From Chiloscyllium plagiosum (lineage: Eukaryota), in assembly GCF_004010195.1 (NCBI RefSeq), contig NC_057718.1, positions 95,747,158 through 95,767,254 on the forward strand: 20,097 nt of DNA, in the 5' to 3' direction. The notes under the pieces are model-generated. The model saw only the letters and a list, made by a program, of their open reading frames with translations, did no database searches and was not told the origin of the DNA. The position numbers and the translations under genes are program-made. Below, in pieces: positions 195-20,097 of the stretch. Positions within the stretch are counted from its first letter, which is position 1. Every line of letters starts with the position of its first letter.

Positions 195-294
195 ACCTTC
201 TACACATCATCTACTGTGCCTGTTGCTCTCGATGTGGTCTCCTCTACACTGGCAAGACAGGTCACCAACTCAGGGATCATTTCAGGGAGCATCT

Positions 295-720
295 GGCACG
301 GTGGCTCAGTGGTTAGCACTGCAGCCTCACAGTACCAGGGTCCCAAGTTCGATTTCAACCTCGTGCGACTGTCTGGGTGGAGTTTGCACATTCTCCCTGT
401 GTCTGCGGAAGTTTCCTCTGGGTGCTCTGGTTTCCTCCCACAGTCCAAAGATGCGCAGGTCAGGGGAATTGGTCATGCTAAATTGTCCTTAGTGTTCAAA
501 GTTTGTGAGAAGATTTGTAGCTCGGGTGCTCATTGTTGTGGTTCTGTTCGCCGAGCTGGGAATTTGTGTTGCAGACGTTTCGTCCCCTGTGTCCTTAGTG
601 TGTGGTGCATTTGTCAGAGGTAAATGGGTCTGGGTGGGTTACTCTTCGGAGGGTCAGTGTGGACTGGTTGGGTCGAAGGGCTTGTTTCCACATTGTATGG
701 AATCTAATCTAAATCTAATT
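295..720 (+). mobile_element. HE1-like tRNA-derived SINE, itself interrupted at 496-589
   Basis: A box GTGGCTCAGTGG (301-312), B-box-like AGTTCGATTTC, central GGAGTTTGCACATTCTCC...CCCACAGTCCAAAGATG body shared with four other copies, (AATCT)n tail; TCTGG at 292-296 and 721-725 may be a short TSD. Confidence 0.9.
496..589 (-). mobile_element. 94-bp 5'-truncated PLE terminal fragment retaining only the 3' half of a hammerhead
   Basis: Flanked by perfect 12-bp direct repeat TGTCCTTAGTGT (484-495, 590-601). Reverse complement starts CAGGGGAC-GAAAC-GTC-TGC. PLE assignment rests on this motif and recalled family similarity. Confidence 0.7.
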
Positions 721-1086
721 TCTGGTACACCTGCACCATGTCATGGGTCTTTTCCACTGCCAAATCCAAGCCACTTGATGCCTGGAGGAAGAACGCCTCA
801 TTTTCTGCCTTGGAATCCTCCAACCATCCAGCATCAACATCAACTTCACCAGGTTCCTCGTCTCCCCTTGCCCCACCTCATCCCAGATCTAACCCTCTAA
901 CTCAGCACCGCCCTCTAGAACTGTCCTACCTATCCATTCCTTCCCACCTATCCACTCCACTCTCCCATCCGACCTATCACCATCACCCCCCACCTGCATC
1001 TACCTACAGCCTTCCCAAATATGTCACACCCGACCCGCACCCCCATTCTCCTAATTACATCAGCCCCCTTCCCTCAGCCCACATTC

Positions 1087-1114
1087 CCGATGAAGGGCTT
1101 TTGCCCGAGACGTT
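1087..1114 (+). ncRNA. Degenerate minimal hammerhead ribozyme (variant A), probably inactive
   Basis: CCGATGA-A-GGGC-TTTT-GCCC-GAGA-CGTT versus the intact CTGATGA-A-GGGC-TTTT-GCCC-GAAA-CGTC at 7337-7364; core changes U4C and A14G. Confidence 0.75.
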
Positions 1115-1184
1115 GATTCTCCTGCTCCTCGGATCTGCCTGATCTGCTGTGCTTTTCCAGCACACCAACCTCATCTCTGGATTG

Positions 1185-1390
1185 ACAGTCCAGTGATAAT
1201 ACCACGAAGCCATCGCGTCTCCATACGCTAACCAATCAGCATGTTTTTCTCATATAGTATCAAAATGTTATTTCTCTTTACATTGGTATTCTTGTGAATT
1301 GTCCTGAAGAGGGCAAGATGAAAAGATTCAACAAAATGTGTGTTTTTTTCGTGATACTTGAGTTCTGTCCTACCAAATAATATTCAGTTC
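1185..1390 (+). mobile_element. Old PLE-type terminal fragment with degenerate hammerhead (variant D)
   Basis: 1304-1329 CTGAAGA-GGGCAAGAT-GAAA-AGATTC. The flanks (TTGGTATTCTTG..AATTG; ATGTGT.TTTTTTTC) recur at 11533-11660. Confidence 0.55.
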
Positions 1391-1451
1391 AATAGCTGTT
1401 GAATAATTCTTTGAGGTTACACTTGGGAATATGCTGAGGTTTGCATGAATG

Positions 1452-3225
1452 TTCTTTTATTTATTGATTTGTTGGATGAGGGGTGTTGCTGGCTGTGTCA
1501 GCATTTATTCACCATCCCTGGTTGTCCCTCGAGAAGGTGGAGGTGAGCTGCCTTCTTGAACCACCACAGTCCATATGTTGTAGGTAGACACGCAATGACC
1601 TTAGGGAGAGAATTCTAGAATTTTGACCCAGCGACAGGAAAGGAATGGCGATAGGTTTCCTAGTCAAGATGGTGAATGGCTTGGAGGGGAGCATGAGGGG
1701 GTTCCCATGTATCTGCTGCCCTTGTCCTTCTAGATAGAAGTGATTGGGGGTTTGGAAGGTACTGTCCAAGGAGCCTTGGGGAATTTCTGCGGTCCATCTG
1801 ATAGATGGTACACACTACTGTCACTGTGAGTTGATGGTGAAGGGAGTAGATATTTGTGGATGTGATGTCAATCAAGTAGGCTGCTTTGTCAAGTTTCTTG
1901 ATTGTTGTTGGGACTGCTTTTATCCAGGCAAATGGATGTATTCCATCCCACTCCTGAATTATGCCCTGTCACGCTTTGGGAAGTGAGAAGCTAACTTACT
2001 CACTGCAAGATTTCCAGCGTCTGACATCCTCTTGGAGCCACTGTATTTATATTGGGAGTCCAGTTAACAGTCAATGGTAATGCCCCAGGATGTTCACAGT
2101 GGGGATTCAGTGATGCTAACACCACTGAATGTCAAGGAGCGATGTTTAGATTGCCTCTGATTGGAGATGGGATTGCCTGGCATGTATGTGGTGCAAATGT
2201 TACTTGCCCCTTTTTAGCTCAAACCTGGATGTTGTCCAACAATGACAGAAGTTGCTGGAGAGACTCTGCAGGTCAGGCAGCATCTGTGGAGAGAAAGCAG
2301 AGTTAACATTTTGGGTCCAGTGATCCTCCTTCAGAACTGATAGTAGCTAGGAAGAAATTGTATAAACGCTGGGTGGGGAGGTAATTGGGGGAGGTGGTAA
2401 GGGAGTAAGTGAATAGGTAGAGATGGAACCCAGAGGGAGAGAAAGACAGTTAGACAGACAAAAGGATAAATAATGGTAAGCCAGGGAGAAAGAAGAGGTG
2501 CTAATGGGGACTATTAATGGGTGAAAATGCGTCATCTGTGTTGAAAGTAGCCCATGTGATGACAGGGCCTTGGTGTGTAGTGGGTAAAGAACATGGAAGA
2601 AGGTTTTCTGGCCCTAAAATTATTCCACTCGATATTGAGTCCTGAAGGCTGCAGGGTCCCCATGTGGAAAATGAGATGATGTTTTTCCAGCTTGTGTTGA
2701 GCTTCGCTGGAGCACTGCAGCAAGCCTGACACAGGGGTGTTGGCCATGGAAGTGTGTTGATGGCAACTGAAAGCACGGGGTCATGCTTGAACACAGAAAG
2801 TAAGATGCCCAGTCTAAGGTTCATTTCCCCAATGTAGAGGAGATCACATTGTGAGCAGCATAGATCTTGTCCAAGTCTTGCTGCATTTAGCTATGGATAT
2901 GTGCAATCATGTACAAACATCTCCAGCTTTGACCTTATGATGGAGGGGAAATCATTGATGAAGCAGCTGAAGATGGTTGGGCCTAGGATACTACCCAAGG
3001 AACTACTGTGGAGATGACCTGGAATTGAGATGACTGACCTCCAACAACTACAGTCGGCTTCCTTTGTGCTAGGTGTGATTTCAACTAGCAGCACAAATTC
3101 CCCCCCCACTCCCGATTCCCATAGACTCCAGTTTTGCTCAGGTTACTCGACCATACACTTGTGGTCAGATGCAGTCTTGGTATGGAGAGCAGTCAGTCTC
3201 ACATCATCTGCAGATTTCAGCTCTT
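1452..3225 (-). mobile_element. Degraded CR1/L2-group LINE, 3' part of ORF2 plus 3' tail, interrupted by a PLE at 2240-2862
   Basis: ORF 2891-3109 contains SLGSILGPTIFSCFINDFPSIIRSKLEMFVHDCT (decayed PQG...FADD RT core); C-terminal frames at 1509-1875; A-rich 3' end at ~1452-1470. Confidence 0.8.
2240..2862 (-). mobile_element. Penelope-like element 3' part (GIY-YIG plus terminal region with degenerate hammerhead variant B)
   Basis: Minus strand CSQCDLLYIGEMNLRLG at ~2810-2860 and VSGLLQCSSEAQHKLEKHHLIFHMGTLQPSGLNIEWNNFR (ORF 2532-2747). HHR relic GTT-CTGAAGG-A-GGATC-ACTG-GACCC-AAAA-TGTT-AAC at 2302-2337. TSD GATGTTGTCCAA (2228-2239) / GATCTTGTCCAA (2863-2874), 11/12. Confidence 0.88.
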
Positions 3226-3502
3226 TAAGGCTAATAATGCTAATGTGGCAGTGGGTAGATGATGATTTAACCATAGGGGCTGGACAGAGGACAGTAGCAT
3301 GGGCCTAGCATGTTGTTTACCATGAGCATGTGTTGTGTGCAGCTGTACATAAATAATTCATGGGAAAGCCTACTACGTCCAAGTCATTCATAAGGAAACC
3401 TTTACTGAATAGAAGTTGGCTCATTCAGCCACAATTCCCATAAAAGCAGAGAACAAAGATGACAAAACATTTTTCAAAAACGATCATACCCACTCTAAGG
3501 CA

Positions 3503-3833
3503 AGGCAATGGTAGTGGTACTACCATTGGACTGGTAACCTGGAGACCCAGATAATATTCTGGGGAGCCAGGTTGTAATCTTGCCAAGGGAGATGGTGGAA
3601 TTTGAATTTAACAAAAGAAAATAATCTGGAACTAAGTGTCAAATGATGACCATGAATCCATTGCTGATCTGTTTCACTAATATCCTTCAGGGAAGGAAAC
3701 TGCTATCCTTACCTGGTCTGGCCTACATGTGACTCCAGACCCACAGCCATGTGGTTGACTCTTAACTGCCCTCTGGGCAATAAATGCTGGTCCAGCCAGT
3801 GACATCCACGTCCTGTGAATGAGTAAAAAAAAA
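3503..3833 (+). mobile_element. tRNA-derived SINE (not HE1) whose 3' tail matches the LINE at 1452-3225
   Basis: Degenerate tRNA-like head with B-box-like GGTTGTAATCT (3570-3580); tail GGGCAATAAATGCTGGTCCAGCCAGTGACATCC...GAGT-A9 resembles the reverse complement of 1452-1515. Confidence 0.75.
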
Positions 3834-5023
3834 CCTATTAATCATTTAACAACCCATTTTAGTCTTGCTTCAGCAACGCTAGCCCACACATTTCAAAGTG
3901 ATCGTCTGGAAACTTGGTTGCATGGCAAATTTTTTTTTTGTATCCTTTTTAGCATGGCCCAAAGTGTTCACAGTGGTGAAGCTGTGACACCAATCATTGC
4001 GGTGCCAATTTGGAACTTAAACCTCCAGCTTAACACCCTCTCTTACTCTTACCTGGCACCTGTACAACCATTTAAATTCTCAGGCAGCCCTGTTTCCACT
4101 GGATGGAAGCAGGCATGGGTTAATCAAACATCATGAGCCACACACCCATATCCTGGGGCTACCAAATTTTTCTTTGATCATTGTTATAAACTAAGGGAGG
4201 TTATTGCTTAATTGCTAATATATCACTGACAGTCATAACTAGCTGGAATTTATTGGCAGGAATTATCTAGTTTTAATAAAGTGTGACATTTTTAACAACT
4301 GCTTCAGACAGAATAAAAGATATTAAATCATGGGTTTTGACAGAGTGGAACCATGCTAGAGGTATCTGTAATGTCTTGAACTTAATTTTAAAAAAATTAC
4401 AATGAGAATTCTCAAATGGCAATATTGCTTATGTTTGTTTTTCGCTAGCCACAATTTTTTGGGAAGCCATTCACATTGGTGTAAGATTAAATTCTTTCCA
4501 GTTTGTTTTGTCCATCCATTAATAAATCTTCCAATTTCTCAATTTAATCCTTTGTTCCTGATTTTTTTCCATGCTTGCGGCCTGATCATCTTCAAACAAT
4601 TGACGATGAATAGGAATGCAGAGGCAAACCACAAATAAACTTTGTCCTTTTAAAAATGATTTCCCACACATTTACGCCAGTAATGTCAGCATAATCTGAC
4701 CATGATCAGCCAAAATCAGAGTAAAAATCAAGATATATCAAACGGCAGTGAATTAAATCCCAAAGCACTCAATGGTTGCACTTCCCACGAATTAAGATTC
4801 AGTTCTGACCTGCCCCCTGAAAGTGACCACACCACCATATTGACAATGTGCAATTCCCTGGGTTGTATCAGATTTCAAAGGCATTCTTTCAAAGGTCATA
4901 ACTTTTCTTAAAAATCCTACAAAGAAACATTCCAGCTCCACAAATGAAACCAAATAATAATTTAGCATAATTTCTCGCCATTTTCAGTGATTTTAAAGTC
5001 AGGTTACTCCGAGGCAAACTTAA

Positions 5024-5353
5024 GGGCGGCACAGTGGCTCAACGGTCAGCACTGCTTCTGCCTCACAGCACCAGGGACCCGGGTTCAATTTCAACCTCAG
5101 GCGACTGTCTGTGTGAGGTTGCATGTCTTCCCAGTGTCTGTGTGGGTTTCCTCCGGGTGCTCTGCTTTCCTCCCACAGTCCAAAGATGTGCAGGTTAGGT
5201 GGGTTGGCCATGCTAAATTACCCATAGTGTCCAGGGAAGTTCAGGTTAGATGTGTTAACCATGGGAAATGCAGGGTTATAAGGATAGAGTAGAATGCCCT
5301 TTGGAGGGGTCAATGGGTCAAATGGCCTTTTTCTGCACTGTAGGATTCTATGA
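5024..5353 (+). mobile_element. HE1-like SINE
   Basis: GGGCGGCACAGTGGCTCAACGG head, GGTTCAATTTC B box, conserved body, CR1-type tail ...CACTGTAGGATTCTATGA. Confidence 0.9.
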
Positions 5354-5668
5354 CCAATGAAGGATCTGTTTGTTAACTTTTTTTTGGTGATAAACACATT
5401 TACACTTGTATTGATTAAAACACAACTAGATTGTCCCCCATATATACAACAAGAGACACTCTTTATTGGAAAGCTTTGACAAACAGGAAATGATTTCATT
5501 CTGCAATGCTGCCCAGTTACATTAGTTCATTATGTAATTGTAAATTTGCCAACCAATTTTATCAGAAACTGCAATGTTGATCGGTGTGGATGGCACTGTA
5601 GAAGACCCATAACTGTCTCAAGGGTCAGGTAACAGCGCCTCGGCTGTCTAGGCTGCTTTATCACTTAC

Positions 5669-5800
5669 AAGCAAAATACTGTGGATGATGGAAATCTGAA
5701 GCAGACGCAGACAATGCTGGAGAAGCTCAGTAGGTCTGGCAGCACCTGTGGACACAGAAATACAGATAATGTTTCGTGTCCAGTATGACACGTTTTCTTC
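5669..5800 (-). mobile_element. Short PLE terminal fragment, 5'-truncated inside a hammerhead core (variant B-like)
   Basis: Similar to 2245-2335. Reverse complement starts GAAGAAAA-CGTGTC-ATACTG-GACAC-GAAAC-ATT. Possible TSD TATCACTTAC (5659-5668) / TGTCATTTAC (5801-5810), 8/10. Confidence 0.7.
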
Positions 5801-5935
5801 TGTCATTTACCCACAGGCTCATGCCTGCTTCTTAGGTCTCCGTCTTCATAACACTTCCCAGGTTCTCTTTGATTCACTATCAACCCTGACCTTCAATCTG
5901 CTGTGATCCTGTTGAGCGGTGGAACAGGCTCGAGG

Positions 5936-6090
5936 CTCTTGGGCATTAATCTCTCAAGGAATTAAGGGATACGGGGAGAGTGCAGGTAAGTGGCGTTGAA
6001 ATGTCCATCAGCCATGATTGAATGGCAGAGTGGACTTGATGGGCCAAATGGCCTTACTTCCACTCCTGTTTCTTATGGTCTTACTTATGG
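5936..6090 (+). mobile_element. CR1-clade LINE extreme 3' end
   Basis: ATCAGCCATGATTGAATGGCAGAGTGGACTTGATGGGCCAAATGGCCTTACTTC followed by a CTTATGG-repeat tail; appears to interrupt an older similar 3' end at ~5895-5935. Confidence 0.7.
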
Positions 6091-7235
6091 GTTCTAAATG
6101 GGTTGAGGAGCCCTTTGTATTTCTTTAAAAAAAATTGCAGACTAATGGTAGTTCATTCTGACCACCTCGTTTTGCTGCCTTGGCCATTTTAGAATTTGCT
6201 TAGATGCAGTCTTTGCTCCTATTCCCCCTTTCACCTATCCAAATCTGAAGCCGAACCAACACTACGAGCTAGGGGAAACTAGGCTGCGAACAACATGCTT
6301 CTGTCATGTTCACTTGAAGCTTGGCAATAAGCCATTTATCTCTGTCACTAGAGGAAATACAAGGCTCTCCTGTTTATTGTAGAGTTGGGGAACCCAGCAC
6401 CAATGGAGTTTTACATGAAAAAGGAACACAGTTGAAGTACTTGCATTGATATAACAGTCTTCGTGACTGCCAAGGGCCTCAAAGCCAATAAAAAAAGACA
6501 TTCCGAAGCACCTTTTGCCAACACGAGGCATCACGTTCCGGAAAGGAACAGAGACATTTGAAGGGGATATTCCCAATCCCAACAAAGTGAGGCACCACAA
6601 TGTATTAGAATTTGGAATCGTAGGCTGTGCCACTCAAATAAAACTGCAGCCTGTTCGTATGCGTCTAATACAAACTAGCATGTGTAGATGCTAGTCAGAT
6701 GATATCAGTGCTCAATAAAATATTTGGTTCTGTTGGAAGAGTAGTGTATGGTTCACCACCAAATTAGCTCAAGCATTTCAAACAGTCTATTGTACAAGTC
6801 TGTCTGCCGCCATCCCTCATTCTGTAAATAATTTTGTTCTCCTTTGTACTGTTATTCATCTATGTTGCATCAAAGCAATAGGAATGTATACGGTAAATGC
6901 CTGACTCGTCAGTGCATGCTCTCCTGCAGTCTGGTAATTGTTCCTTCAGGAACCACAAGGTAACTGCACATGGTTGAATTAATTTAATCGACAAAAGACC
7001 TCTGGAGTATCTCAGCTTCTGAGAAACAGCCTGGCCCCACGAGTAATTAGCCTCATGGCCATTAAATATCTGCCTCTTGTCTTTGTTAGCAGAGAACAAC
7101 ATATTATTCAATGTATGGTCTGCCGAGATAATGTACAGTTTGAGTGTCACTTTCTCTCACTTAGCCTGTTGGTTATGTAGTTTAACACTCGAATCGTATT
7201 GCTTCTTGCTTCTGAGTTGGTTGGATATATTGAGT

Positions 7236-7410
7236 AGGTAAAAACAATGACTGCAGATGCTGCAAACCAGAGTCCAGATTAGAGTTGAGCTGGAAAAGCA
7301 CAGCAGTTCAGGCAGCATCCGAGGAGCAGTAAAATCGACGTTTCGGGCAAAAGCCCTTCATCAGGAACACAGGCAGAGAGCCTGAAGGGTGGAGAGATAA
7401 GTGAGAGTAG
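7236..7410 (-). mobile_element. 175-bp PLE terminal insertion with intact hammerhead and perfect TSD
   Basis: Perfect 13-bp direct repeat GGATATATTGAGT at 7223-7235 and 7411-7423; body homologous to 1085-1183. Confidence 0.9.
7337..7364 (-). ncRNA. Minimal hammerhead ribozyme (variant A), catalytic core intact
   Basis: Reverse complement CTGATGA-A-GGGC-TTTT-GCCC-GAAA-C-GTC: CUGANGA box, 4-bp stem II with tetraloop, GAAA box, palindromic ACGU in place of stem III, GUC cleavage triplet. Confidence 0.85.
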
Positions 7411-8144
7411 GGATATATTGAGTGTCAGGGTGCTTTTAATATCCCTTTTAACCATTCAGCGACCTTCATGGAGGACACATACTGTTCCCGAGGATAGTAG
7501 TAAATCAGTAAAAAAAAATGATTATCCATCATTGTTCTGACAACTTCGACATTTCATTAATGTTTTCTTTAATTTATGAGCTGTTCTGAATCCACTGCCC
7601 AACCTAACTTCGTCATTTTCTTCTGGCTTTTCCTGTGTTACCTGGGATAGCCACAATCTTGGTTGATCACCTTGATGCTAACCCTTGTTGTGGATTTGTT
7701 AGGTGGCTTTTGTAGCTGGATATCCTTCCTAATGCTCATCTCTGCCCCTTCTATGTCGGCAATGTATCCAATTTACAGTGGTGCCAGCTGAAAGGGTTAA
7801 AGGCGAATTGACTTGATGGGTCAAAGTAGCCCTCAAAACTGATTCTCCCCCACCCCTCACCCCACTGCCTCTAACTCCTAGTCTTACTCATTGCTGGGTT
7901 TCCCACAGATCATGGTCCTGCACCCACTGTAGGCAACATACCAGTGGTGGCAGAATGAAATCTTGAGTGACCTCTAATTGGTGAGTGAGCCCAAGGATGG
8001 AGGGACTGAATGTCAGGTGCCCTGCCCCAGACCTCTCAATTGAAGGGTGGGTTGGTGGTTGGCAGGTACTGGGAAGGACATCCTCTCACTAACTCAAACC
8101 CATCTCGGAACAACGTGAATTCCAATCGCAATTGCTGGCAGCTA

Positions 8145-9025
8145 ACAGCACAGGAACAGGCCCTTCAGATCTCCAAGACTGCGCTGACACTTGATGTCTT
8201 TCTAACCTAAATGGTCCATACATGGTCATATCCTTCTATTCTTTGCCTAATTGTATATCTGTTGAGATGCTTCTTAAGCATTGCGATTGTATCCTTCTCC
8301 ACTATCTCCTCTTGCTATGCCCTCCAAGCACTTTCTACCCTTTGTGTAAGAAACTTGCTCTCATAACTCCTTTAAACCTACCCCCTTTTAAACTAAACAT
8401 ATGCCCCCTGGTCATTGACATTTCTGCTCTGGGAAATAGATTCCAATTATCCATTTGATCCGCAGCTCTTCTAAATTTGTAAACTTCTATCGGGTTGCCC
8501 CTCATCCTGCAATGTTCAAGTGAAAACAGATCAAGTTTGCTCAATCTCTCCTCATACCTAATACCCTCCAAACCAGGCAACATCCTGGTAAACTGTTTCT
8601 GTACCCTCACCAAAGGCTCCACATCCTTTTGTAATGTGGCGACTAGAACTGTACACAATCTCCCACAAGTGTGGCCTAAGTAAAGTTCCATACAGTGCAC
8701 CATGACTTACTAATTTTTATATTCTATGCCCTGACCAATGAAGGCAAGCATATGCCATATGCCTTCTTGACCACCTTATCCACTTGTGTTGCTATTTTTA
8801 GGGAACAGTGGACTCTGTACACCAAAATCCCTCTGAATGTTGATGCTTCAAAGAGTTTTGACATTCACCGTGTACTTCCCTTCTGCATTAAATCTTCCAA
8901 AATGCCTCACCTTGCCTTTGTCCAAATTAAACTCCATCTGATAATTTTCTATCCAGGTTTCCAGCCTATTTATATCCTGTTGCATCCTCTGGCAATCCTC
9001 CTCACTATCCCTAGTTCCCCCCTTT
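8145..9025 (-). mobile_element. CR1-clade LINE, ORF2 C-terminus and 3' UTR (left part of the 8145-10730 element)
   Basis: ORF 8335-8703 LVRVQKQFTRMLPGLEGIRYEERLSKLDLFSLE...TRGH; ORF 8848-9030 DSEEDCQRMQQDINRLETW...MEFNLDKGKVRHFGR. Confidence 0.9.
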
Positions 9026-9288
9026 CTCAAACAAGGAATTAGGAAGGCTAAAAGGAGTCATAAAATGCCTTTGGCGAACAGGATTAAGGTAAATCCCAAG
9101 GTATTTTATACATACCTAAGGAGCCAAGACAGTAGCTAGGGAAAGGGTAGGTCCACTTAAGGACAAAAGAGGAAATTTATATGTGAAGCCCAGAGGAAGT
9201 GGGTGAGGTCCTCAGTGACTACGTTGCATCAGTATTCACAAAAGAGAAGTACATGGTGGATGATGAGTCTTGGGGAGGGGGGGATATT
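9026..9288 (+). mobile_element. Internal CR1 ORF2 segment (EN-RT tether) inserted antisense into the surrounding CR1
   Basis: Reads IRKAKRSHKMPLANRIKVNPKVFYTYLRS...GEVLSDYVASVFTKEK; flanked by TTCCCCCCTTT (9015-9025) / TTCCCTCCTTT (9289-9299), 10/11. Confidence 0.8.
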
Positions 9289-9563: not shown

Positions 9564-9595
9564 CCTGATGAAGGAGCAGTGCTCCAAAACCTAGT
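9564..9595 (+). ncRNA. Isolated degenerate hammerhead (variant C) inserted in CR1 RT
   Basis: C-CTGATGA-A-GGAGC-AGT-GCTCC-AAAA-CCTAGT; perfect 5-bp stem II, G12A change; homologous to 11480-11508 and 12499-12528. Confidence 0.7.
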
Positions 9596-10383: not shown

Positions 10384-11386
10384 TTTATATTGACATGCCC
10401 CAGAAAATCAAAATGCCCATCCCAAGATTCACCATCCATCATGTCCTTCTCCTTTGTGAATACTGATGCAAAGTAGTAATTGAGGATCTCACCCACTTCC
10501 TCCTCACGAAGGAATTCCCTCTTTTGTCCTTAAGTGGACCTTCCCTTTTCCTAGCTACCCTCTTGGCTCCTCATATATGTACAAAATACCTTGGGATTTT
10601 CCTTAATCCTGTTTGTCAAAGACATTTCATGAGCCCTTTTAGTCCTCCTAATACCTTGTTTGAGTTCTTTCCTTCTATTTTTGTATTCTTCGAGGGATCT
10701 CTCTGTCCTCCGTTTCCTAAGATGAATCTTTAAAATAAATCAATCCCACTATGTTTTACTGGCAGGATGGTTGTTCAGGGCCCTGATTTGCCTATCAAGA
10801 GGTCTCTTCTTGGATTTAGTGGGTGCCCCTGCTCTTTTATGAAAACTACTAGATTAAAATGGGGATCGGTGGGATCATTGCAGGAATAGAGTCCTTTTTG
10901 ATGGATTTAACTATCCACACACTCCACTTCTGTTGGAGTGCTGGGTAATGATTGCCATTTATCTCAATGTTCTGTATTTTAACATTTGTGTCTTACATAT
11001 GGTTTATCAGTTCTCCTCTCCATTTGTGGATTTGGCTGGTAAATTGGTTGTGGTATTAATACAGAATAAGCTGCAATAGCGATGCTAAATCTGCTGTTGA
11101 ATTGTTGAAGAATTCTCTTCATGTATCTGGCTTCAGGTAAATATCCATTCATACAATGCTCTGTTTGCCTTTTAACATCTTTGTGTTTGCACTGTTATGT
11201 TGCACTCCTTCAGAAGGGGAACTAACCTTGTATTTTTCAAGTTAGTCAGAAAATGACCCTTCATTTGCTGATCTCTAGGCACGGCTATGGGGAGTTTGAG
11301 AGAATTGTGCAAAATGAAACCCTAGTTATTTAAAAGTAGTAATTTGGAAGTCGAGAAATTGCTGATATAAAGGCACATGGTATTGA

Positions 11387-11519
11387 TGATTTGGAGATGC
11401 CGGTGTTGGACTGGGGTGTACAAAGTTAAAAATCACACAACACCAGGTTATAGTTCAACAGGTTTAATTGGAAGCACACTAGCTTTCGGAGCACGACTCC
11501 TTCATCAAATGGTTGTGTA
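11387..11519 (-). mobile_element. 133-bp PLE-type terminal insertion (variant C) with near-intact hammerhead
   Basis: TSD CACATGGTATTGA (11374-11386) / CACATGGCATTGA (11520-11532), 12/13; body nearly identical to 19890-19980. Confidence 0.85.
11480..11508 (-). ncRNA. Minimal hammerhead ribozyme (variant C), single C3U core change
   Basis: Reverse complement TTGATGA-A-GGAGT-CGT-GCTCC-GAAA-GCTA; 5-bp stem II (one U-G pair), palindromic AGCU, CUA triplet. Confidence 0.75.
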
Positions 11520-11664
11520 CACATGGCATTGAAGCTTTTTGTCTTGCACTCATTGAAACAATTTGCAAGAATACCAATTCAAGGGAAAACTAACACTTGG
11601 GTTAGTAAGATGAAAAAGCTTTGCATAAATGTGTCTTTTTTTCAGCATTACTTGAATTTCAGTT

Positions 11665-11855
11665 AGGTTAGCTCAATTGACTGGACAGCTGGTAATATAA
11701 TGTGGAGTAATAAGAATGGTGCATGTTCAATTCCTACACTGGCTGAGGTTACCGTGAAGGACTCTCTTTTTCAACCTCTCTACTCACGTGAGGTGTGGTG
11801 AAACTTAGATTATGGTACCACTAGTCATCTCTCTCCAAGGAGAGAGTGGTCCAGC
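11665..11855 (+). mobile_element. Third type of tRNA-derived SINE, degraded
   Basis: A-box-like TAGCTCAATTG (~11669-11679), B box GTTCAATTCC (~11725-11734), terminal CTCTCTC...GAGAGAG stem; family recognised from memory only. Confidence 0.55.
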
Positions 11856-12335
11856 TTTTAACTAAGATCAAAGTGAGATCCTCGCTAAGCCATGGGCAAG
11901 CCTATTAAGGGGGATTACTGTTTATTAAATGCCGTATGAATTGCTCATCTTGCCTCATTAATCTATAGCTTTCTGTCATATCGCCTGTCATGAGCTAACT
12001 AGATGCCAAGAATTCTCGACATATAAGTCAGAGCAGATAGCTCCAAAGGTATTCCATGTTGTACGCCATTCATTCCATAGGCACCAGCCACATGCACCCC
12101 AAGTACATGGACATTGCCATCTGATGTGTGCCAGCCTGCAGGAATCCTGGTTCTCCCCACTGCTGTAGAGAACCAGGGTTCCAGTGGAAAGCCTTACACC
12201 CAAACAGACAACTGTGTAGCCTGCCTAACAGTGATGGCAAGATGGACTGATAAAAATCAAAGATTGCAATTGAAGGTGCAAAGTCTCCACCATTTTGTTG
12301 CCATTTCAGACAATATTAGATTGTCCCTTTTTAAA

Positions 12336-12581
12336 TGATGTGGAGGAGCCGGTGTTGGACTGGGGTGGATAAAGTCTGAAATCACACGACACCAGGTTAT
12401 AGTCCAACAGGTTTATTTAAAATCACAAGCTTTCAGAGGCACAGACACAGAATATACAGGCGGAATATATAATGCCAGTGCGCCTCCCTCCACTTCACCT
12501 GATGAAGGAGCAGCGCTTTCAAAAGCTTGCGATTTTAAATAAACCTGTTCGACTATAACCTGGTGCTGTGTGACTTCAGAC
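12336..12581. mobile_element. Fold-back PLE-type insertion (variant C subfamily): two inverted ~60-bp arms, spacer, degenerate hammerhead
   Basis: Arms ~12374-12433 and ~12522-12581 are reverse complements with a few mismatches; CTGATGA-A-GGAGC-AGC-GCTTTC-AAAAGCTT at 12499-12528; TSD ATTGTCCCTTTTTAAA (12320-12335) / ATTGTCCTTTTTTAAA (12582-12597), 15/16. Confidence 0.85.
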
Positions 12582-12850
12582 ATTGTCCTTTTTTAAAATG
12601 CACCTAAAAGGCCAGGGCACAATAATTTGAATGAAGTATTGCAATCAGATTATTTTGTCCTGTTACAGTGTGGACTTGTATGGTAAGCTTTTCAAGGACC
12701 TGGCTACAGCATGAGTTCTTTACAGAGGTCAGCAAAGCAACGTCTGCAATGAAATCCTTTCAAAATGAACACCTTTTCTATGTACTTAAAGCAAGATATT
12801 GGGAAGTTATCTTCATTTCTTCAAGTTCCAAACTTGTTTCTAACTTCGAA

Positions 12851-13323
12851 TCATAATTTCATTGAGTCATAAAGTCATACAGCACGGAAACAGACCCTTC
12901 GGTTTAAAGAGTCCATGCCGACCATAATCCCAAACTGAACTAGCTGGTTTTTGTGCTTGGCCTATATCGCTCCAAACCTTTCTCATTCATATACTCATCT
13001 AAATGCCTTTTAAATGTTATATCTGTACCTGTATCCACCACTTCCTCTGGAAGTTCATTCCACACGCGATTCACTCTGTATGTAAAAACATTGCCCCCAT
13101 GTCTTTTTTAAAACCTTTCTCCGCTCACCTTAAAAATATGGTCCCCAGTCTTGAAATCCCCAACGTAGGGGGAAAAAAACCCTGCCATTCACCTTGTCTA
13201 TATCCCTCATGATTTTATGAACCTCTATAAGGTCACCCCTAAACCTCCTAAGCTCCAGTGAAAAACACCCCAGCCTGTCCAGCCTCTCCCAATAACTCAT
13301 AACCTCCATCCCTGCCAACATCT
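12851..13323 (-). mobile_element. CR1-clade LINE 3' fragment
   Basis: ORF 13130-13321 MLAGMEVMSYWERLDRLGCFSLELRRFRGDLIEVHKIMRDIDKV; GAGTCAT-type tail at the left end. Confidence 0.88.
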
Positions 13324-13559
13324 CTGCATGTTAAAGAGCTTCTCAAAGTGTAGTATCACTTTTTGCCAAATAATGTTGGGTGGCAATGTTTCTCACCTCA
13401 ACCTCTAGTTGGATATCCTCCTTGGACTGTTCCTTTATAACCATCTTGAATATTTCCAAAGTTCTTCACCTGCAAAAAGCCCCCCTCTTCCTTTAAATGG
13501 CTGCTGCAGCCCTTTGCTACATACTGAAGTGTCAGATATCCCATCCGTGAATCTATGTT

Positions 13560-13617
13560 TCATGCCAGATCTGCTGAGTCTTTCTAGCAATTTCTATTTT
13601 TGTTTCAGATTTTCAGT
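13560..13617 (+). mobile_element. Short remnant of a PLE terminal sequence
   Basis: TGCCAGATCTGCTGAGTCTTTCTAGCAATTTCTATTTTTGTTTCAGATTTTCAG resembles the reverse complement of 5688-5742 and 2241-2280. Confidence 0.55.
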
Positions 13618-13626
13618 TCTTTGGCT

Positions 13627-14711
13627 CTTCACTATTATCTCTTTGAGACTGATTACTAAACTTAGTGATCTCAGACTAAGCCCCACTCTCTGCAACTGGA
13701 TCCTCAGCTTCCTGATCCACAGGCCACAATCTGTGAAGATCGAGGACAGTATTTCATCCTCACTAACACTCAACACTGGAGCCCCCCAAGGGTGGGTACT
13801 GAGCCCCCACTGTACTCGTGTATACCCATGACTGCGTCGCCAAATACCAGACTAATGCCATTTACAAGTTTTCTAATGACACCACAATAGTTGGTCAAAT
13901 CTCAGATGGTGATGAAACAGACTACAGACAGGAGGTGGAAGACCAGGAAAAATGGTGCATTGAGAACAACCTAGCTCTCAATGCTGGCAAAACCAAGGAA
14001 CTCATTATTGACTTTTGGCGGCATGTTACTCATGCCTCCCCACCACTACATTAACAGCACAGAGGTGGAAAGAGTGGAGAGTGTCAAGCTCCTGGGAGTG
14101 GTCATCCACAACAAGCTTTCTTGGACTCTTCATGTGGACGAACTGATTACAAAGGCTCAACAACGTCTCTTCTTCCTCAGGCAGCTGAGAAAATTTGGCA
14201 TGATGCCGAATACCCTTGCCAACTTTTATAGGTGCGCCATCGAGAGCATTCTGTCTGGATGTATCACTACCTGGTATGGCAACTGTATTATTCAAGATCG
14301 GAGACGGTTGCAGAGAGTATTGAACTAGGACTGGACAATCACAAAGGCAAATCTCCCAACTATAGAATCCATCTACCAGGCCCACTGTCAAGGAAAGGCC
14401 ACCAGCATTCTCAAAGATCCATCCCACCCTGGCAATGCTTTTCTACAACCTCTACCATTGGGGAGAAGGTACAGAAGTCTGAACACACACGCCATCCCGT
14501 TTCGGAACAGTTTATACCCTGCTGTTGTTGGAATACTGAATGGACTCACAAACTCTTAGCATTTGCCTGTACCTGTGTTTTTGTTTTGCTGCTGTTTTAC
14601 CTATTATTTACTCATCTATGCTATTTAACTCTGTGATCTGCCTGTATTGCTCACAAGACAAAGCTTTTCACTGTGCCTCGGTACATGTGACAATAAATTT
14701 AATTCAATTCA
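13627..14711 (+). mobile_element. Rex1/Babar-clade non-LTR retrotransposon, 5'-truncated RT with frameshifts plus 3' UTR
   Basis: Consecutive frames [18 protein letters not shown]...[13 protein letters not shown] / YTHDC...IYKFSNDTTIVGQISDGDETDYRQEV...LNAGKTKELIIDF / KAQQRLFFLRQLRKF...FYRCAIESILSGCITTWYGNC; ends GTGACAATAAA plus (AATTC)n tail. Confidence 0.9.
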
Positions 14712-14984
14712 GTCAAAATTGTATTGCCACAGTCCAAGAAGGTCAGTGTTGAAAACACCCAGTGACACAGGTCCAAATATTTGATAATAGTATCTTGTAC
14801 TTGACGGGGTACAATGGAAAGTATGCTTACCTGGCTACATGAATAAGTACTCAACTTATCCATTAATGAGGAAATGTGCATTGATAGCATGAGATTATTC
14901 AGTAATATATTCATGGCAAAATCCTCACAGTCCAATCTGGGGCTGCCAACCACCATCAGAAAAGATAAACCATTTTCCATGAAA

Positions 14985-15070
14985 AGTGAAGGCTCAGTGG
15001 TGATCTGATTTATTAAGTTATAAAGGGCTTTGATGGGGAAAACATAAAGGAGATGGTTTCACTGCTGGAG
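14985..15070 (+). mobile_element. Highly degraded CR1 C-terminal remnant
   Basis: AAGGCTCAGTGGTGATCTGAT...TATAAAGGGCTTTGAT resembles the RLRGDLIEV.KI.KG.D segment of the other CR1 copies. Confidence 0.4.
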
Positions 15071-15331
15071 GAAGGACTAGCAATGACTATTAGGGTGTGT
15101 TGTATTTCAGTTCAAACAGGGAATCCAAGTTGCTGTGGCGACATGCACCTTTACCTACATTCTCACCACCCTAAGGGTAAAGAGGTTTCTCCAGATCTCC
15201 ATATTGATTAATCAGCGACTGACTGATACTTGTAGGAGGCCATGTGGTTCAGTGGAAAATCAGATTGGCAAATTACATACCACATTATGAATATTTAAAT
15301 GAGGATTGATCCAGGGGGACAATTAGCAGCA

Positions 15332-15613
15332 TCATAAAATTCCTATAGTGTGGAAGCAGGCCATATGGCCTATCAAGTCTGAACCAAACCTCTGAAGAGC
15401 ATCCCACCTATACCCACCCCATCCCTGAATTTCCCATGGCTAATCCACCTAACCTGCATATCTTTAGACAGAAGGAGGAAACCTGAGGAAACCCATGCAG
15501 ACATAAAGAGAATGTGCAAACTCCACACAGACTGTTGCTCAAAGGTGGAATCAAACCCAGGGTCCCTGGATCTGTGAGGCAGCAGGGCTAACCACTGAGC
15601 TACTGTCCAGCCC
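15332..15613 (-). mobile_element. HE1-like SINE
   Basis: Reverse-complement head CTAACCACTGAGCTACTGT, body GAGAATGTGCAAACTCCACACAGAC, tail TCATAAAATTCCTATAGTGTGGAAGCAGGCC. Confidence 0.88.
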
Positions 15614-16341
15614 AAGTCGGTTCATTGTATGTCTGCCTCCCTTCACCATGTTATCAGTAGACCAAGCATTGAGCTGTTGCTGTCTTACACTTGGTGATAC
15701 TATCACTCTTTCACATACTTCCCTTTTTGTAAGATGGTATTGAGCACACTTTTTCATCCTGACTTCTTTAAATAATCTCCCATGTTTCTCTGAAATGTCT
15801 TGGAACATTTTCTAAACTAAAAACATTGGATCCCTATATCTCTGTTCTCCTACTTGTCTGAGGGTAACTCCTTACCCTCGGTATATCTGCAGATCTCTTA
15901 GGAAATTTCAGTGGAACTTCCGTGGAATTTCACTCCCACTTTATGAATGCTAATAGTTTTGTTTTCCAATCAATGCAAATTAAAAGATGGAAACTGTTTG
16001 TGTATCAAAGCATTAGATGATTAAATGTTAGTTCCCATTTGGTTATAATTTTCTGAGACTGCTAATACGAATAGACCTTGGTATTCTGATTGAATACTTC
16101 ATCGATCAAGCAATCCTTTTTTTTGAGGCTATATACTTATTTAGTTCAAGCCCTATAAGCAACGACATAGTATATGTAAGTTGTCAGTCTCAAGGGCTAA
16201 AATGCCAGTAATCAAGAGTCCCAGTTAGCCCACAGGCTTTACTTTGGATACTCTTTATCATAGAATCTACAGACAGGGAATATTAGTTTCTACATGATAA
16301 CTGAAATTCCTGATCATCCATGTTTTGACTCAACTTCAAAG

Positions 16342-16848
16342 GGCTCAGGAAAGATTTACAAGGATGCTGCCAGGGTATGACGATTTGAGCTATAGGGAGA
16401 GGCTGAATAGACTGGGACTATTTTCCCTGGAGCATTGGAAGCGGGGTTTGGGGGTTGGGAGGGGGGGGGGGGGGTAAGTGGGGGTGACCTTATAGACGTT
16501 TACAAAATCATTAGGGGCGTAGATAAGATAAATAGACAAGGTTTTTTCCCTGGAGTGGGTGAGTCCAGAACTAAAGGTCATAGGTTTAGGGTGAGAGGGA
16601 AAAGATATAAAATGGACCTAAGGGGCAATTTTTTACGCAGAGGGTGGTGCCAGATGAAGTATGGGAAGCTCGTATAATTGCAGCATTCAAAAAGCATTTG
16701 GATAGGTATATGAATAGGAGAGGCTTTAGAGGAGTATGGGCCAAGTGCTGGTAGATGGGACTAGATTAGGTTAGGATATCTGGTCAGCATGGACGATTTG
16801 AACCGAAGGGTCTATTTCCGTGCTGTACATCTCTATGACTCCATGACT
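16342..16848 (+). mobile_element. CR1-clade LINE 3' fragment with internal G-rich expansion
   Basis: ORF 16435-16677 GDLIDVYKIIRGVDKINRQGFFPGVGESRTKGHRFRVRG; tail CTCTATGACTCCATGACT. Confidence 0.88.
16443..16484 (+). repeat. G-rich tract with G-quadruplex potential
   Basis: GGGG-TTT-GGGGG-TT-GGG-A-G14-TAAGT-GGGGG. Confidence 0.7.
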
Positions 16849-16857
16849 AGCATTTAA

Positions 16858-17609
16858 TTTTATTTATGCAAATGATTTGGATGAGAATATAGGAGGCATG
16901 GTGGATAATTTTGCAGATGACACCAAAACTGGTGGTATAGTGGATAGTGAAGAAGATTATCTAAGATTACAAAGAGATCTTGATCAATTGGGCTAATGGG
17001 CTGAGGATTATCAGATGGAGTTAGATTTGGATAAATGTGAGGTATTGCATTTTGGTAAAACAAACAAAAAGAGGAATTATACAATTAATGCTAGGAACCT
17101 AGGAAGTGCTGTGAAACAGCGAGCCCTAGGGGTTTTGATACAAAACTCTGAAATTTGTGTCTCTGTTAGACAGGGTGTTTAAGAAGGCATATAGCACGCT
17201 TGCCTTCATTACTCTGACCTTTGAGTATAGGAGTTGGGTGTCATGTTGAGGTCATGCAGGATGTTGGTGAGGCCTCTTCCAGACTACTGTGTGCAGTCCT
17301 GGTTGCCTTGTAACATTATTAAACTGGAGAGGGTTCAGAAAAAATTACCAGATGTTGCCAGGAATGAGATACAAAAATGGATGGAAAGGCTGAGACATTT
17401 TTCAGTGGAGCTTAGGAGGTAGAGGGGTCACCGTATTGAGGTTTATAAAATCATGAGAGGCATCGATAAGGTGAAAGACAAGGATCTTTTCCCTAGGGTG
17501 GGAGTTGATCAAAGCTAAGGGGCATATTTTTAAGGTGAGAGCAAAAAGATTTAAAAAGGACATGAGGGCAATTTGTTTTTTACACAGAGAGTGATTCATG
17601 TGTGGACGA
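16858..17609 (+). mobile_element. CR1-clade LINE ORF2 fragment (RT core to near C-terminus, no tail)
   Basis: IYANDLDENIGGMVDNFADDTKTGGIVDSEEDYLRLQRDLDQL at ~16862-16990; ORF 17234-17422 LVRPLPDYCVQSW...KLERVQKK. Confidence 0.88.
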
Positions 17610-19889
17610 ACCTACACCTTCCTCCAAATCAGTTATGTCTCTCACAAACAACAGTGGTCCCAGCATGGATCCCTGTGGGACACCACTGGTCACAGGTCTC
17701 CATTTTGAGAAGCTCCCTTCCATTACTACTCTCTGTCTCCTGTTGCCCAACCAGTTCTCAATCCATCTAACTAGAACACCCTGGACCCCATGCGACTTCA
17801 CCTTCTTCATCAGCCTACCAAGGGGAACCTTACCAAACACCTTACTAAAGTGCATTTAAATGACATCTACTCCTCTTCCCTCATCAATCGACTTTGTCAC
17901 CTCTTCAAAGATTTCTATTAGGTTTGTAAGACATGACCTTCCCTGCGTAAAACCATGCTGCCTAACACTGATAAGACCATTTTCTTCCAAATGGGTATAT
18001 ATCGTATCCCTTAGTATCTTCTCCAATAGCTTCCCTACCACTCCTGTCAGGCTTTTGGGTCTGTAATTACCTGGATTATCCCTGCTACCCTTCTTAAACA
18101 AGAGGACAACATTAGCAATTTTCTAGTTCTCTGGGTCCTCCCCTAGTTTTCAAGGATGCTGCAATGATATCTGTTAAAGCCCCAGTTGTTTCCTCTCTCA
18201 GTCCCCTCAGTAACCTGGGATAGATCCTATCTGGTCCTGGGAACTTGTCCAGCTTAATGCCTTTTCTCCCTCCTTATGCTGACTTGACCTAGCGTAATCA
18301 AAGATCTATCCTTATTCTCAACATCCGTCATGTCCCTCTCCTCGGTGAATACTGACAAAAATTACTCATTAAGAATCTCACCCGTTTTCTCTGACTCCAT
18401 ATGTGGCTCAATGGTTAGCACTGCTGCCTCACAGCACCAGGGTCCTTGGTTCAATTCCAGCCTCGGATGTCCATTTGTGCGGAGTTTGCACATTCTCCCC
18501 GTGTCTGTGTGGGTTTCCTCTGGGTGTTCTGGTTTCCTCCCACAGTCCAAAGATGTGCAGGTCAGGTGAATTGGCCATGCTAAATTGCCCATAGCGTTAG
18601 GTGCATTAGTCAGAGGGAAATGGGTCTGGGTGGGTTACTGTTCGGAGGGTTGATGTGGAGTTGTTGGGCCAAATGGCCTGTTTCCACACTGTAGGGAATC
18701 TAATCTTTCCTCCTTTGTCCTTGAGTGGGCCAGTGCTTTCCCTTGTTACCCTTTTGCTCCCTATGTATGAATAAAAGGCTTTGGGGTTTTCCTTAACCCT
18801 GCTCACTAAGGATATCTCATGACTTCTTTTAGCGCTCTTAATTCCTCGTTTCAGATTGGTCCAACATTCCCGATATTCTTCCAAAGCTTTGTCTGACTTC
18901 GGTCGCTTGGACCTTATGTATACATCCTTTTTCCTGTTAGCTAGTCCTCACAATTTCACCTGTCATTCATGGTTCCCTAAACAGGAACATATCTCTCCTG
19001 AACTCTAATCAACCTCTCGTTAAATGCCTCCCACATATCGAATGTGAACTTTCCTTCAAACAGCTGCTCCCATCTGCATTCCCTGGCTCCTGCTGAATGT
19101 TGGTATAGTTGGCCTTCCCCAATTTATCCCTCTTCCTTTAGGACCACTCTCACTTTGTCCATGAGCATCCTAAAGGTTATGGAATTGTGATCACTATTCT
19201 CAAAGTAATCCTCCACTGAAACTTCAACCAACTGGCCGGGCTCATTTCCTAACCCCAGGTCCAGTATGGCCCCTTCACGAGTTGGACTACTTACATACTG
19301 CTTTAGAAGCCCCTCCTGGATGCTCCTTACAAATTCTGCACCATTCAATCTTCTAACACTAAGTGAATCCCAGTCAATGTTGGGAAAATTAAAATCTCCT
19401 ATCACCAATACCCTGTTGCTCCTACATCTTTCTATGATCTCTCTACGTATTTGTACCTCTATCTCACGTTCGCTGTTTGGAGACCTGTAGTAAAACCCCA
19501 ACATTGTTACCGCACCCTTCCTATTTCTGAATCTGCTCATATTGTCTCACTGCTCAAGTCATCCATGGTGCCCTCCTTCAGCACAGCTGTGATATCCTCT
19601 TTGATCAGTAATGCAACTCCTCCAGCCCTTTTACCTCTCTCGCTATCCCACCTGAAGCATCGATATCCTGGGACATTTAGTTGCCAATCATGTCCTTCCC
19701 TCAATCAAGTCTCTGTAATAGCAATGACATCATACTCCCAGGTGCTAATCCAAGCTCTAAGTTCATCTGTCTGACCTACTATACTACTTGCATTAAAACA
19801 AATGCACCTCAGACCACCAGTCCCTCTGCGTTCATCCACCGCTTCCTGCCTATTCTTGCCCTTAGTCACGCTGACTTCATTATCTAGTT
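17610..19889 (-). mobile_element. CR1-clade LINE ORF2: APE endonuclease, tether and RT N-terminal half (pseudogenised)
   Basis: GLRCICFNASSI...YDVIAITET; YYRSPN...VIGDFNFPNIDW...PTREGAILDL...SDHNSITF; KENPKAFYSYI; FKKGSRDNPGNYRP...[25 protein letters not shown]. Confidence 0.93.
18403..18706 (+). mobile_element. HE1-like SINE inserted in the CR1 tether region
   Basis: GTGGCTCAATGG A box, GGTTCAATTCC B box, conserved body, tail CCACACTGTAGGGAATCTAATCT; CR1 sequence resumes on both sides. Confidence 0.92.
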
Positions 19890-20036
19890 GATGATTTGAA
19901 GGTGCCGGTGTTGGACTGGGGTGTACAAAGTTAAAAATCACACAACACCAGGTTATAGTCCAACAGGTTTATTTGGAAGCTAGTGCTTCCAAATAAACCT
20001 GTTGGACTATAACCTGGTGTTGCGTGATTTTTAATC
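19890..20036. mobile_element. Fold-back PLE-type insertion (variant C) containing a 50-bp near-perfect palindrome
   Basis: Arms 19931-19980 and 19985-20034 match 49/50 with loop TAGT; TSD TTATCTAGTT (19880-19889) / TTATCTCGTT (20037-20046), 9/10. Confidence 0.88.
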
Positions 20037-20097
20037 TTATCTCGTTCAGATATGTTACAAAAGGTGGTATGTCTGCTGATGCCGGGGGCTGGGAAGG

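What the first reader, a model, noticed from the sequence alone, without database searches (positions are those of the whole stretch)
484..20046. Multi-family set of short, ORF-less, hammerhead-bearing PLE-terminal insertions with 10-16 bp TSDs
Seen: six ORF-less inserts of 94-246 bp (496-589, 5669-5800, 7236-7410, 11387-11519, 12336-12581, 19890-20036) and one GIY-YIG-coding insert (2240-2862), each bracketed by a 10-16 bp direct repeat. Across the window about five HHR variants occur, differing in stem II and in the palindrome replacing stem III (ACGU, AGCU, AAGCUU). The 5' ends of the single-arm inserts fall inside or just upstream of the ribozyme: in stem II (589), in the core (5800), ~11 nt upstream (11519) and ~46 nt upstream (7410). 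Established: PLE pseudo-LTRs carry minimal hammerheads thought to act as dimers. Inference: these may be non-autonomous, retrozyme-like units mobilised in trans by PLE RT/GIY-YIG, or the ribozyme fold may be a preferred stop point for reverse transcription.
Basis: partly seen in the sequence, partly recalled or inferred. Interest (0 to 1): 0.7.

Follow-up and report, generated by a model that had tools for sequence, protein, structure and literature searches.

The report
Hammerhead-tipped Penelope retroelement stubs
The short inserts are end-pieces of several known Penelope-like jumping genes in a shark-like genome; the pieces are ordinary, but in the one family tested most copies begin a few bases in front of a small ribozyme motif, which suggests the enzyme copies only the first ~130 bases of its own message.

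Summary
The inserts are real. Five of 7 target-site duplications are clear, one moderate, one weak; an empty site is shown for one insert. Only 3 of 7 hold a complete minimal hammerhead. Five further pieces were missed, including a longer GIY-YIG-coding copy of the 7236-7410 family. All fit known Penelope-like element (PLE) ends: pseudo-LTR, tail on one arm, inverted arm.

The boundary test was run for one family. RNA reads covering a place fall from 1062 to 200 over 8 nt just upstream of the hammerhead core; DNA contigs of three organisms agree, and the clipped letters look like unrelated flanks. No listed peak lies at the cleavage site, and tandem joints are about 1%, so these are not retrozymes.

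Best reading (about 0.5, inferred): the RT starts internally at the tail nearest the transcript's 5' end and runs off at the transcription start, leaving promoter-less stubs. This scan reported the same boundary before on other DNA of this genome; I took that lead and tested it. The element kind is known; I did not find the boundary in print.

The parts
13..168 (-). Inverted 5' arm of a long Neptune-type PLE copy (D2): RT-EN linker with Cx4Cx2C
   Evidence: tblastn of P0042, E 1.3e-7
203..295 (+). D2: N-terminal half of GIY-YIG endonuclease
   Evidence: tblastn of P0038 E 9e-6, P0042 E 1e-4
296..716 (+). SINE (HE1-like; name recalled) inserted in D2; host of insert 1; ends approximate
484..495 (+). 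Left TSD of insert 1 (right copy 590-601), 12/12
   Evidence: single in 3 of 3 paralogous SINEs
496..589 (-). Insert 1: Poseidon-like end, starts in stem II, GAAAC-GUC box 581-574, no CUGAnGA box; one open frame
   Evidence: likeness to the anole PAc template judged by eye from the text
740..1185 (+). D2: endonuclease C-terminus (740-862, one stop), pyrimidine-rich 3' UTR, decayed hammerhead (C3 at 1087), end; same family as insert 4
   Evidence: (E 5e-18 to insert 4)
1261..1365 (+). E1: missed PLE end of a fifth group, hammerhead core at 1304; no clear TSD; limits approximate
2240..2862 (-). Insert 2: 5'-truncated Neptune-like copy inside a LINE RT relic; frameshifted GIY-YIG, 3' UTR, decayed hammerhead (C3 at 2334); TSD 2228-2239/2863-2874, 11/12
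5669..5802 (-). Insert 3: end related to insert 2, begins at or in the first core box; TSD weak (7/8)
7236..7410 (-). Insert 4: intact minimal hammerhead (C3 7364, stem II 7357-7345, GAAA 7344-7341, predicted cut after 7337), 46 nt of upstream UTR; TSD 7223-7235/7411-7423, 13/13
7364..7372 (-). Modal 5' boundary of the insert-4 family across the genome (0 to about 8 nt upstream of C3)
9564..9594 (+). Missed stub of the insert-5 group: core and stem II, then interrupted by a SINE
11345..11660 (.). E2: missed head-to-head PLE end (minus arm from about 11592, plus arm from about 11598), host of insert 5; limits approximate
11387..11519 (-). Insert 5: hammerhead (C3 position 11508, now T), 11 nt upstream, tail; TSD 11374-11386/11520-11532, 12/13
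12336..12581 (.). Insert 6: head-to-head pair; minus arm 12336-12438 with tail, ends in stem II; plus arm 12439-12581 without tail, C3 at 12499, 60 nt upstream with TATA-like box at -33; TSD 15/16
13547..13615 (+). Decayed remnant related to insert 3; ends not defined
   Evidence: (E 0.003)
19890..20036 (.). Insert 7: 50-bp-arm hairpin (19931-19980/19985-20034), unpaired tail 19890-19930; the loop spans the predicted cleavage site (after 19982); TSD 9/10

Best explanation
The inserts are retrotransposed ends of about five endonuclease-bearing Penelope-like families (Neptune-type shown; one Poseidon-like by eye). SHOWN HERE: duplicated targets; one end shared with a GIY-YIG-coding copy; tail on one arm only in the head-to-head inserts; for one family a sharp 5' boundary 0-8 nt upstream of the hammerhead core, not at the cut site. 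ESTABLISHED ELSEWHERE: the anole PLE protein nicks and extends both target strands, starts reverse transcription internally at two sites bounding the tail near the ORF start, needs RNA downstream of those sites, and does not need hammerhead cleavage. INFERRED: every element mRNA carries such a start site about 100-130 nt from its 5' end. RT priming there runs through the hammerhead and off the transcript's 5' end, and this short run-off cDNA is integrated. Long copies need the second, downstream site in a tandem or read-through RNA and are rarer. Priming on both strands at the two sites, joined by microhomology, gives the hairpins. The stubs lack the upstream promoter and the downstream protein-binding RNA, so they should be dead ends.
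For: RNA reads covering a place: 1740 at 7345, 1062 at 7360, 200 at 7368, 155 at 7370, 105 at 7388; loss per nt 0.7-1.0% over 7321-7345, about 3% over 7345-7360, 19% over 7360-7368, 0-5% beyond 7370. Contig word depth drops 5.1M to 1.7M, 6.3M to 1.5M and 6.1M to 1.4M over the same 8 nt in three organisms. The largest contig loose end is behind 7367 (1723, 1636, 1737 contigs; 508 reads, second to 763 at 7289). Its letters agree at 0.33-0.34 in contigs, near the commonest-base frequency of 0.30, against 0.47-0.54 at the other listed contig loose ends. The cut site 7337 is not among the 24 listed loose-end rows. Most listed fold-back joints also use 7360-7367. In the window 8 of 14 arms scored begin inside the hammerhead or within 11 nt upstream. 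In insert 7 the loop reads in the orientation of the tail-less strand while the tail is on the other arm, which needs two cDNAs. A TATA-like box at -33 to -31 with an initiator-like motif at -7 to -4 occurs in 2 of 5 arms that reach far enough (background for both 0.6%). PMC11167929.
Against: No transcription start was measured; one search lists no place where many molecules begin. The promoter motifs are missing in both window copies of the tested family (insert 4, D2), and the motif windows were chosen after looking. Insert 4 differs from its family at 7368 (95 of 106 and 86 of 94 reads), so clipping blurs the boundary within 7367-7372. Coverage also halves at 7289 (1961 to 890) from subfamily divergence alone, so part of the 5' step may be the same effect; against reads that fit insert 4's own 3' end (about 620-650) the fall to 155 is only four-fold. 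934 loose-end rows were not shown. One family, one RNA sample. 6 of 14 arms extend 40 nt or more upstream. In D. virilis the start lies about 120 nt upstream of helix I, before an intron. The in vitro data come from a Poseidon element; the tested family is Neptune-type.
Confidence: 0.5

Rival explanations
1. Roadblock or release at the hammerhead: RT copying the 3' pseudo-LTR stalls or switches when it unwinds the (protein-bound) ribozyme, and leaves at the 5' strand of stem I or inside stem II.
For: Loss per nt triples inside stem II and the first core box; six window arms end inside the stem II-to-cut-site part or at the core. The anole hammerhead is protein-assisted.
Against: The main break lies beyond the whole fold. 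Stem II is 4-5 bp and predicted folds are weak (z from -2.3 to +1.8 in 7 of 7 pieces). In vitro product length followed the template 5' end tiled from -126 across the hammerhead.
Confidence: 0.2
2. Non-autonomous SINE-like or retrozyme-like units: stubs are themselves transcribed (host or internal promoter), possibly circularised, and recopied in trans.
For: Two fixed ends and high abundance (64,000-70,000 contigs laid per run); rare head-to-tail joints exist (7367 to 7237: 7, 11, 16 contigs). D. virilis Penelope has an internal promoter; non-autonomous PLEs and mobilisation in trans are described.
Against: Tandem joints are about 1% of loose ends at 7367; no tandem in the window; no permutation; boundary not at the cut site. 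The anole protein needs RNA to +172, beyond the start sites at +111-118, and that part is not copied into a stub.
Confidence: 0.13
3. Ordinary smooth 5' truncation, with an apparent step because several subfamilies share the hammerhead region and differ upstream.
For: A similar though smaller step at 7289 comes from subfamily divergence; the reference mismatches its family at 7368; RNA loose letters at 7367 agree at 0.44.
Against: Contig loose letters at 7364-7367 are near chance agreement and AT-rich like flanks; fold-back and tandem joints use the same point; few copies are lost between tail and hammerhead (0.7-1.0% per nt).
Confidence: 0.1
4. The boundary is a 3' splice site just before helix I, as in D. 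virilis, and stubs come from spliced or partly spliced RNA.
For: A pyrimidine tract plus AG lies 9-20 nt upstream of C3 in 4 of 5 long arms, and the contig loose letters place an AG about 9-10 nt upstream. The D. virilis intron ends at the 5' end of helix I.
Against: No shared upstream exon shows in the loose letters; AG after a pyrimidine-rich UTR is common; PLE insertions retain introns.
Confidence: 0.07

Closest known systems
Solo minimal hammerheads of truncated metazoan PLEs (Cervera and De la Pena 2014, PMC4209133; parts 1-2 of 4 read, supplements not seen)
   Same: Minimal type I motif with palindromic 15.2-16.2, several consensus families per genome, mostly single motifs ascribed to truncated PLEs, pairs 100-700 bp apart on opposite strands.
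   Different: The text read does not map 5' ends relative to the motif and does not treat sharks.
Insertion architecture of EN+ PLEs: pseudo-LTR, inverted 5'-truncated arm, 30-40 bp tail on one end, 8-10 bp TSD (Arkhipova 2013, PMC3846280; Craig 2021, PMC8557442; passages read)
   Same: Inserts 6, 7, E2 and D2 have this layout; tails of about 34-41 nt on one arm.
   Different: Here the unit is reduced to 94-246 bp, TSDs reach 12-16 bp, and the 5' ends cluster.
Poseidon of Anolis carolinensis, internal RT initiation (Frangieh 2024, PMC11167929; main text and methods read; supplementary figure 2 is a picture and was not seen)
   Same: Fixed 3' ends at tail borders, both strands extended, hammerhead cleavage not needed. 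Insert 1 ends about 78 nt after its cut site; PAc starts RT 82-89 nt after its cut site (counted by eye).
   Different: The paper's text deals with 3' ends, not a 5' boundary or run-off stubs; its Fig. S2 coverage may show one.
Non-LTR retrozymes of animals (Cervera and De la Pena 2020, PMC7229834, passages; Li et al. 2026, 10.64898/2026.07.22.740005, parts 1-3 of 5, supplements not seen)
   Same: Non-coding, type I hammerhead, related to PLE pseudo-LTRs, long TSDs, dispersed monomers; reported in one chondrichthyan.
   Different: Defined by tandem units with complete hammerheads and circular RNA; here single or head-to-head copies with minimal, often incomplete motifs.

Membership tests
EN+ Penelope-like element (truncated insertion) | C-terminal GIY-YIG endonuclease upstream of the terminal repeat | tested here: met
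   Insert 2 and D2 match GIY-YIG-bearing relatives; Pfam PF01541 on those relatives is weak (E 0.008 and 0.0009, below gathering) and absent on window fragments. No coding link is shown for the groups of inserts 1, 5-7 and E.
EN+ Penelope-like element (truncated insertion) | Telomerase-like reverse transcriptase | not testable with these tools
   No PLE RT in the window; no genome held.
EN+ Penelope-like element (truncated insertion) | Minimal hammerhead in the pseudo-LTR | tested here: met
   Complete in inserts 4, 5, 6; partial or decayed in the rest.
EN+ Penelope-like element (truncated insertion) | Inverted 5'-truncated arm and 30-40 bp tail on one end | tested here: met
   Inserts 6 and 7; inverted arm also in E2 and D2.
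EN+ Penelope-like element (truncated insertion) | Variable-length target-site duplication | tested here: met
   5 of 7 clear, 1 moderate, 1 weak; empty site for insert 1.
Neptune clade | Cx2-5CxxC motif in the RT-EN linker | tested here: met
   Cx4Cx2C at 13-168(-), part of D2. Not covered by insert 2; no RT tree made.
Non-LTR retrozyme | Tandem units, at least two with complete hammerheads | tested here: not met
   None among the 7 inserts; head-to-tail joints 7367 to 7237 in 7, 11, 16 contigs against 1723, 1636, 1737 loose ends.
Non-LTR retrozyme | Canonical type I hammerhead with helix III and loop 1-loop 2 contacts | tested here: not met
   Only a palindrome in place of helix III and a 2-3 bp stem I.
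Non-LTR retrozyme | Monomeric linear and circular RNA | not testable with these tools
   Only a poly(A) single-cell run was laid.
Non-autonomous PLE (SINE-like) | Independent amplification from short master copies with their own promoter | not testable with these tools
   Needs a genome-wide copy phylogeny; no genome held.

The most novel reading that the evidence does not exclude
Penelope-like elements mass-produce integrated 'strong-stop-like' cDNAs: internal RT initiation at the tail nearest the cap, then run-off at a transcription start a few bases before the hammerhead. The solo minimal hammerheads scattered through animal genomes would then be promoter-less by-products with two defined ends that record each family's transcription start, not random truncations, and rare tandem versions would be the raw material of retrozymes.
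Probability: 0.45. Interest if true: 0.62.

Novelty: new member of a known kind. Interest (0 to 1): 0.36.

Why it matters
The parts are known. What is added is a quantitative 5' boundary that is not the cleavage site. If it is the transcription start, it links the 2024 finding of internal initiation to the genomic record, explains why solo hammerheads greatly outnumber full PLEs and why PLEs need more-than-unit copies, argues that self-cleavage does not make the insertion template, and gives a way to read PLE promoters from genome sequence. It bears on an open question (what the PLE hammerhead is for) and is testable with an existing in vitro system.

Tried and rejected
No whole genome is held, so no genome-wide end map with TSDs. 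Rfam: no hammerhead family; 14 matches, all below gathering, the best being miRNA models on the palindromes, rejected. Pattern scans: insert-5 group 0 in viral, 0 in metagenome, 1 in prokaryote contigs; insert-4 group 10, 0 and 7 loci; of these 18 loci none matched beyond the seed region at convincing scores (best E 4e-4), treated as chance. Plasmid BLAST, none. Word-based protein search, 0 of 7 candidates; Atlas, no usable hit; related loci in viral contigs, 0 of 9 confirmed. Whether insert 1's 30-residue frame starts a long RT ORF stays open. No RNA holder was listed for 10400-13000. No empty-site joint for insert 4 appeared; one contig of organism C carries its left flank and 3' end. The sigma-70 promoter scan does not apply to a eukaryote and was ignored; no tRNA. 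Simple snap-back of the tail-bearing cDNA was rejected for insert 7 because the loop has the other strand's orientation. Cleavage-defined 5' ends were rejected as the main mode for the insert-4 family; insert 7's centre at the cut site is explained as well by the AAGC/GCTT repeat around it. The remnant 13547-13615 was left out of the count of 14 arms because its ends are undefined.
Full report
SETTING. The window is repeat-rich vertebrate DNA with LINE relics and a SINE in several copies. The closest named relatives of its endonuclease fragment come from sharks and rays.

OBSERVATION. TSD scores against 400 random interval pairs: four reached by 0 of 400, one by 1, one by 7 (insert 7, 9/10) and one by 41 (insert 3, 7/8). 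Insert 1 lies in a SINE whose 3 other aligned copies hold the 12-bp target once, which shows the duplication directly. A relaxed minimal-hammerhead scan gave 4 hits (shuffle mean 0.37, max 2), three of them in inserts 4, 5 and 6. Inserts 1 and 7 lack the first core box; inserts 2 and 3 have decayed cores. Rfam found no hammerhead. Five sequence groups exist: insert 1; inserts 2 and 3 plus a remnant; insert 4 plus D2; inserts 5-7 plus a stub; E1 and E2.

Five more pieces, giving 12 loci in 20 kb. The most telling is D2 at 13-1185: an inverted RT-EN linker with Cx4Cx2C, a GIY-YIG split by the SINE that holds insert 1, a 3' UTR, and the same hammerhead end as insert 4. So insert 4 is the end of a coding, Neptune-type element (clade motif as described in PMC8557442). 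Insert 5 is nested in E2, itself a head-to-head pair.

ARCHITECTURE. Inserts 6 and 7 have two opposed arms with the tail on one only, the layout described for EN+ PLEs. In insert 7 the 4-nt loop reads in the orientation of the tail-less strand, so the tail-bearing cDNA cannot have made it by folding back; two cDNAs joined at the AAGC/GCTT repeat fit (inference). This agrees with both-strand extension and two start sites in vitro.

THE BOUNDARY TEST. One RNA run and three DNA contig sets were laid on 7170-7469 at 80% likeness. Reads covering a place: 2131 (7321), 1740 (7345), 1062 (7360), 200 (7368), 155 (7370), 105 (7388), 53 (7403). Loss per nt is about 1% before stem II, 3% in stem II and the first core box, 19% over 7360-7368 and 0-5% after 7370. 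Contig depth falls by 66-77% over the same 8 nt in three organisms. The largest contig loose end is behind 7367, 3 nt upstream of C3, with letters agreeing at 0.33-0.34; loose ends that run into other subfamily sequence agree at 0.47-0.54. The first few loose letters are shared, so true ends spread over about 7367-7372. The predicted cut site (7337) is not among the 24 listed rows, though 934 rows were not shown. Head-to-tail joints from 7367 back to 7237 occur in 7, 11 and 16 contigs. Against the reading: coverage also halves at 7289 from subfamily divergence; the reference mismatches its family at 7368; RNA loose letters agree at 0.44; about a quarter to a third of DNA depth continues upstream; only one family and one RNA sample were examined; contig depth is no copy number. 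In the window 8 of 14 arms begin in the hammerhead or within 11 nt upstream and 6 extend 40 nt or more.

MECHANISM. In the anole element, RT starts inside the RNA at +111-118 of the ORF and at a second nearby site, needs RNA to +172, and gives products whose length follows the template's 5' end; hammerhead mutants insert normally (PMC11167929). The tail is therefore the start of the ORF, and any mRNA begun in the pseudo-LTR has a start site close to its cap. I infer that priming there and running off the cap yields stubs with two fixed ends, without promoter or protein-binding RNA. Promoter evidence is thin: a TATA-like box plus initiator-like motif in 2 of 5 long arms, neither from the tested family, and D. 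virilis Penelope starts further upstream before an intron. Confidence 0.5; PLE origin itself about 0.95. Rivals: roadblock at the ribozyme 0.2, non-autonomous spread 0.13, alignment effect 0.1, splice acceptor 0.07.

COMPARISON. The inserts work like, and on the tested features belong with, truncated EN+ PLE insertions. They fail the retrozyme tests (tandem units, canonical motif). Solo minimal hammerheads from truncated PLEs were reported in 2014, and retrozymes as pseudo-LTR derivatives in 2026. I found no text on a 5' boundary at the hammerhead or on run-off stubs in searches; the library lacks most subscription papers, Dfam and Repbase were not available, and Fig. S2 of PMC11167929 and the supplements of the 2014 and 2026 papers were not seen and may bear on this.

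EARLIER NOTES. This scan has described the same stubs and boundary in other windows of this genome. The idea that the boundary is the RNA's start came from those notes; one search is my own test of the boundary, not of the start.

VERDICT. Real, mostly known, with one reproducible and unexplained regularity. Interest 0.36.

Noticed in passing
window 13-1185: Three-level nesting: a 5'-inverted Neptune-type copy, split by a SINE, which is split by a Poseidon-like stub.
   Followed up: yes
window 19981-19984: The hairpin's centre of symmetry coincides with the predicted hammerhead cleavage site; compatible with one cDNA made from cleaved RNA, but a natural 4-bp inverted repeat explains it as well.
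   Followed up: partly
window 1233-1304: E1 may extend upstream to a CCAAT box (-72) and a TATA-like motif (-46) before its hammerhead core.
   Followed up: partly
window 7170-7285: A contig of organism C carries the left flank joined to insert 4's 3' end, so this insertion predates the split of the two organisms despite its perfect TSD.
   Followed up: no
window 11660-11870: A second, tRNA-like SINE-looking stretch directly after E2 (by eye; ARAGORN found no tRNA).
   Followed up: no
window 13660-14700 and 16340-19880: LINE relics: an RT-to-3'-end piece with a PF09004 match at 13975-14325 (+), and RT and endonuclease pieces on both strands.
   Followed up: no
proteins P0001, P0008, P0038: Several annotated proteins, two of them from rays, end in this PLE endonuclease C-terminus fused to unrelated genes (a GPCR, ATP synthase subunit c, a LINE RT); probably gene-model artefacts or exonised PLE pieces.
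   Followed up: no
window 9026-9279 and 10416-10664: Two LINE pieces form an inverted pair about 1.2-1.3 kb apart, 86-87% complementary.
   Followed up: no
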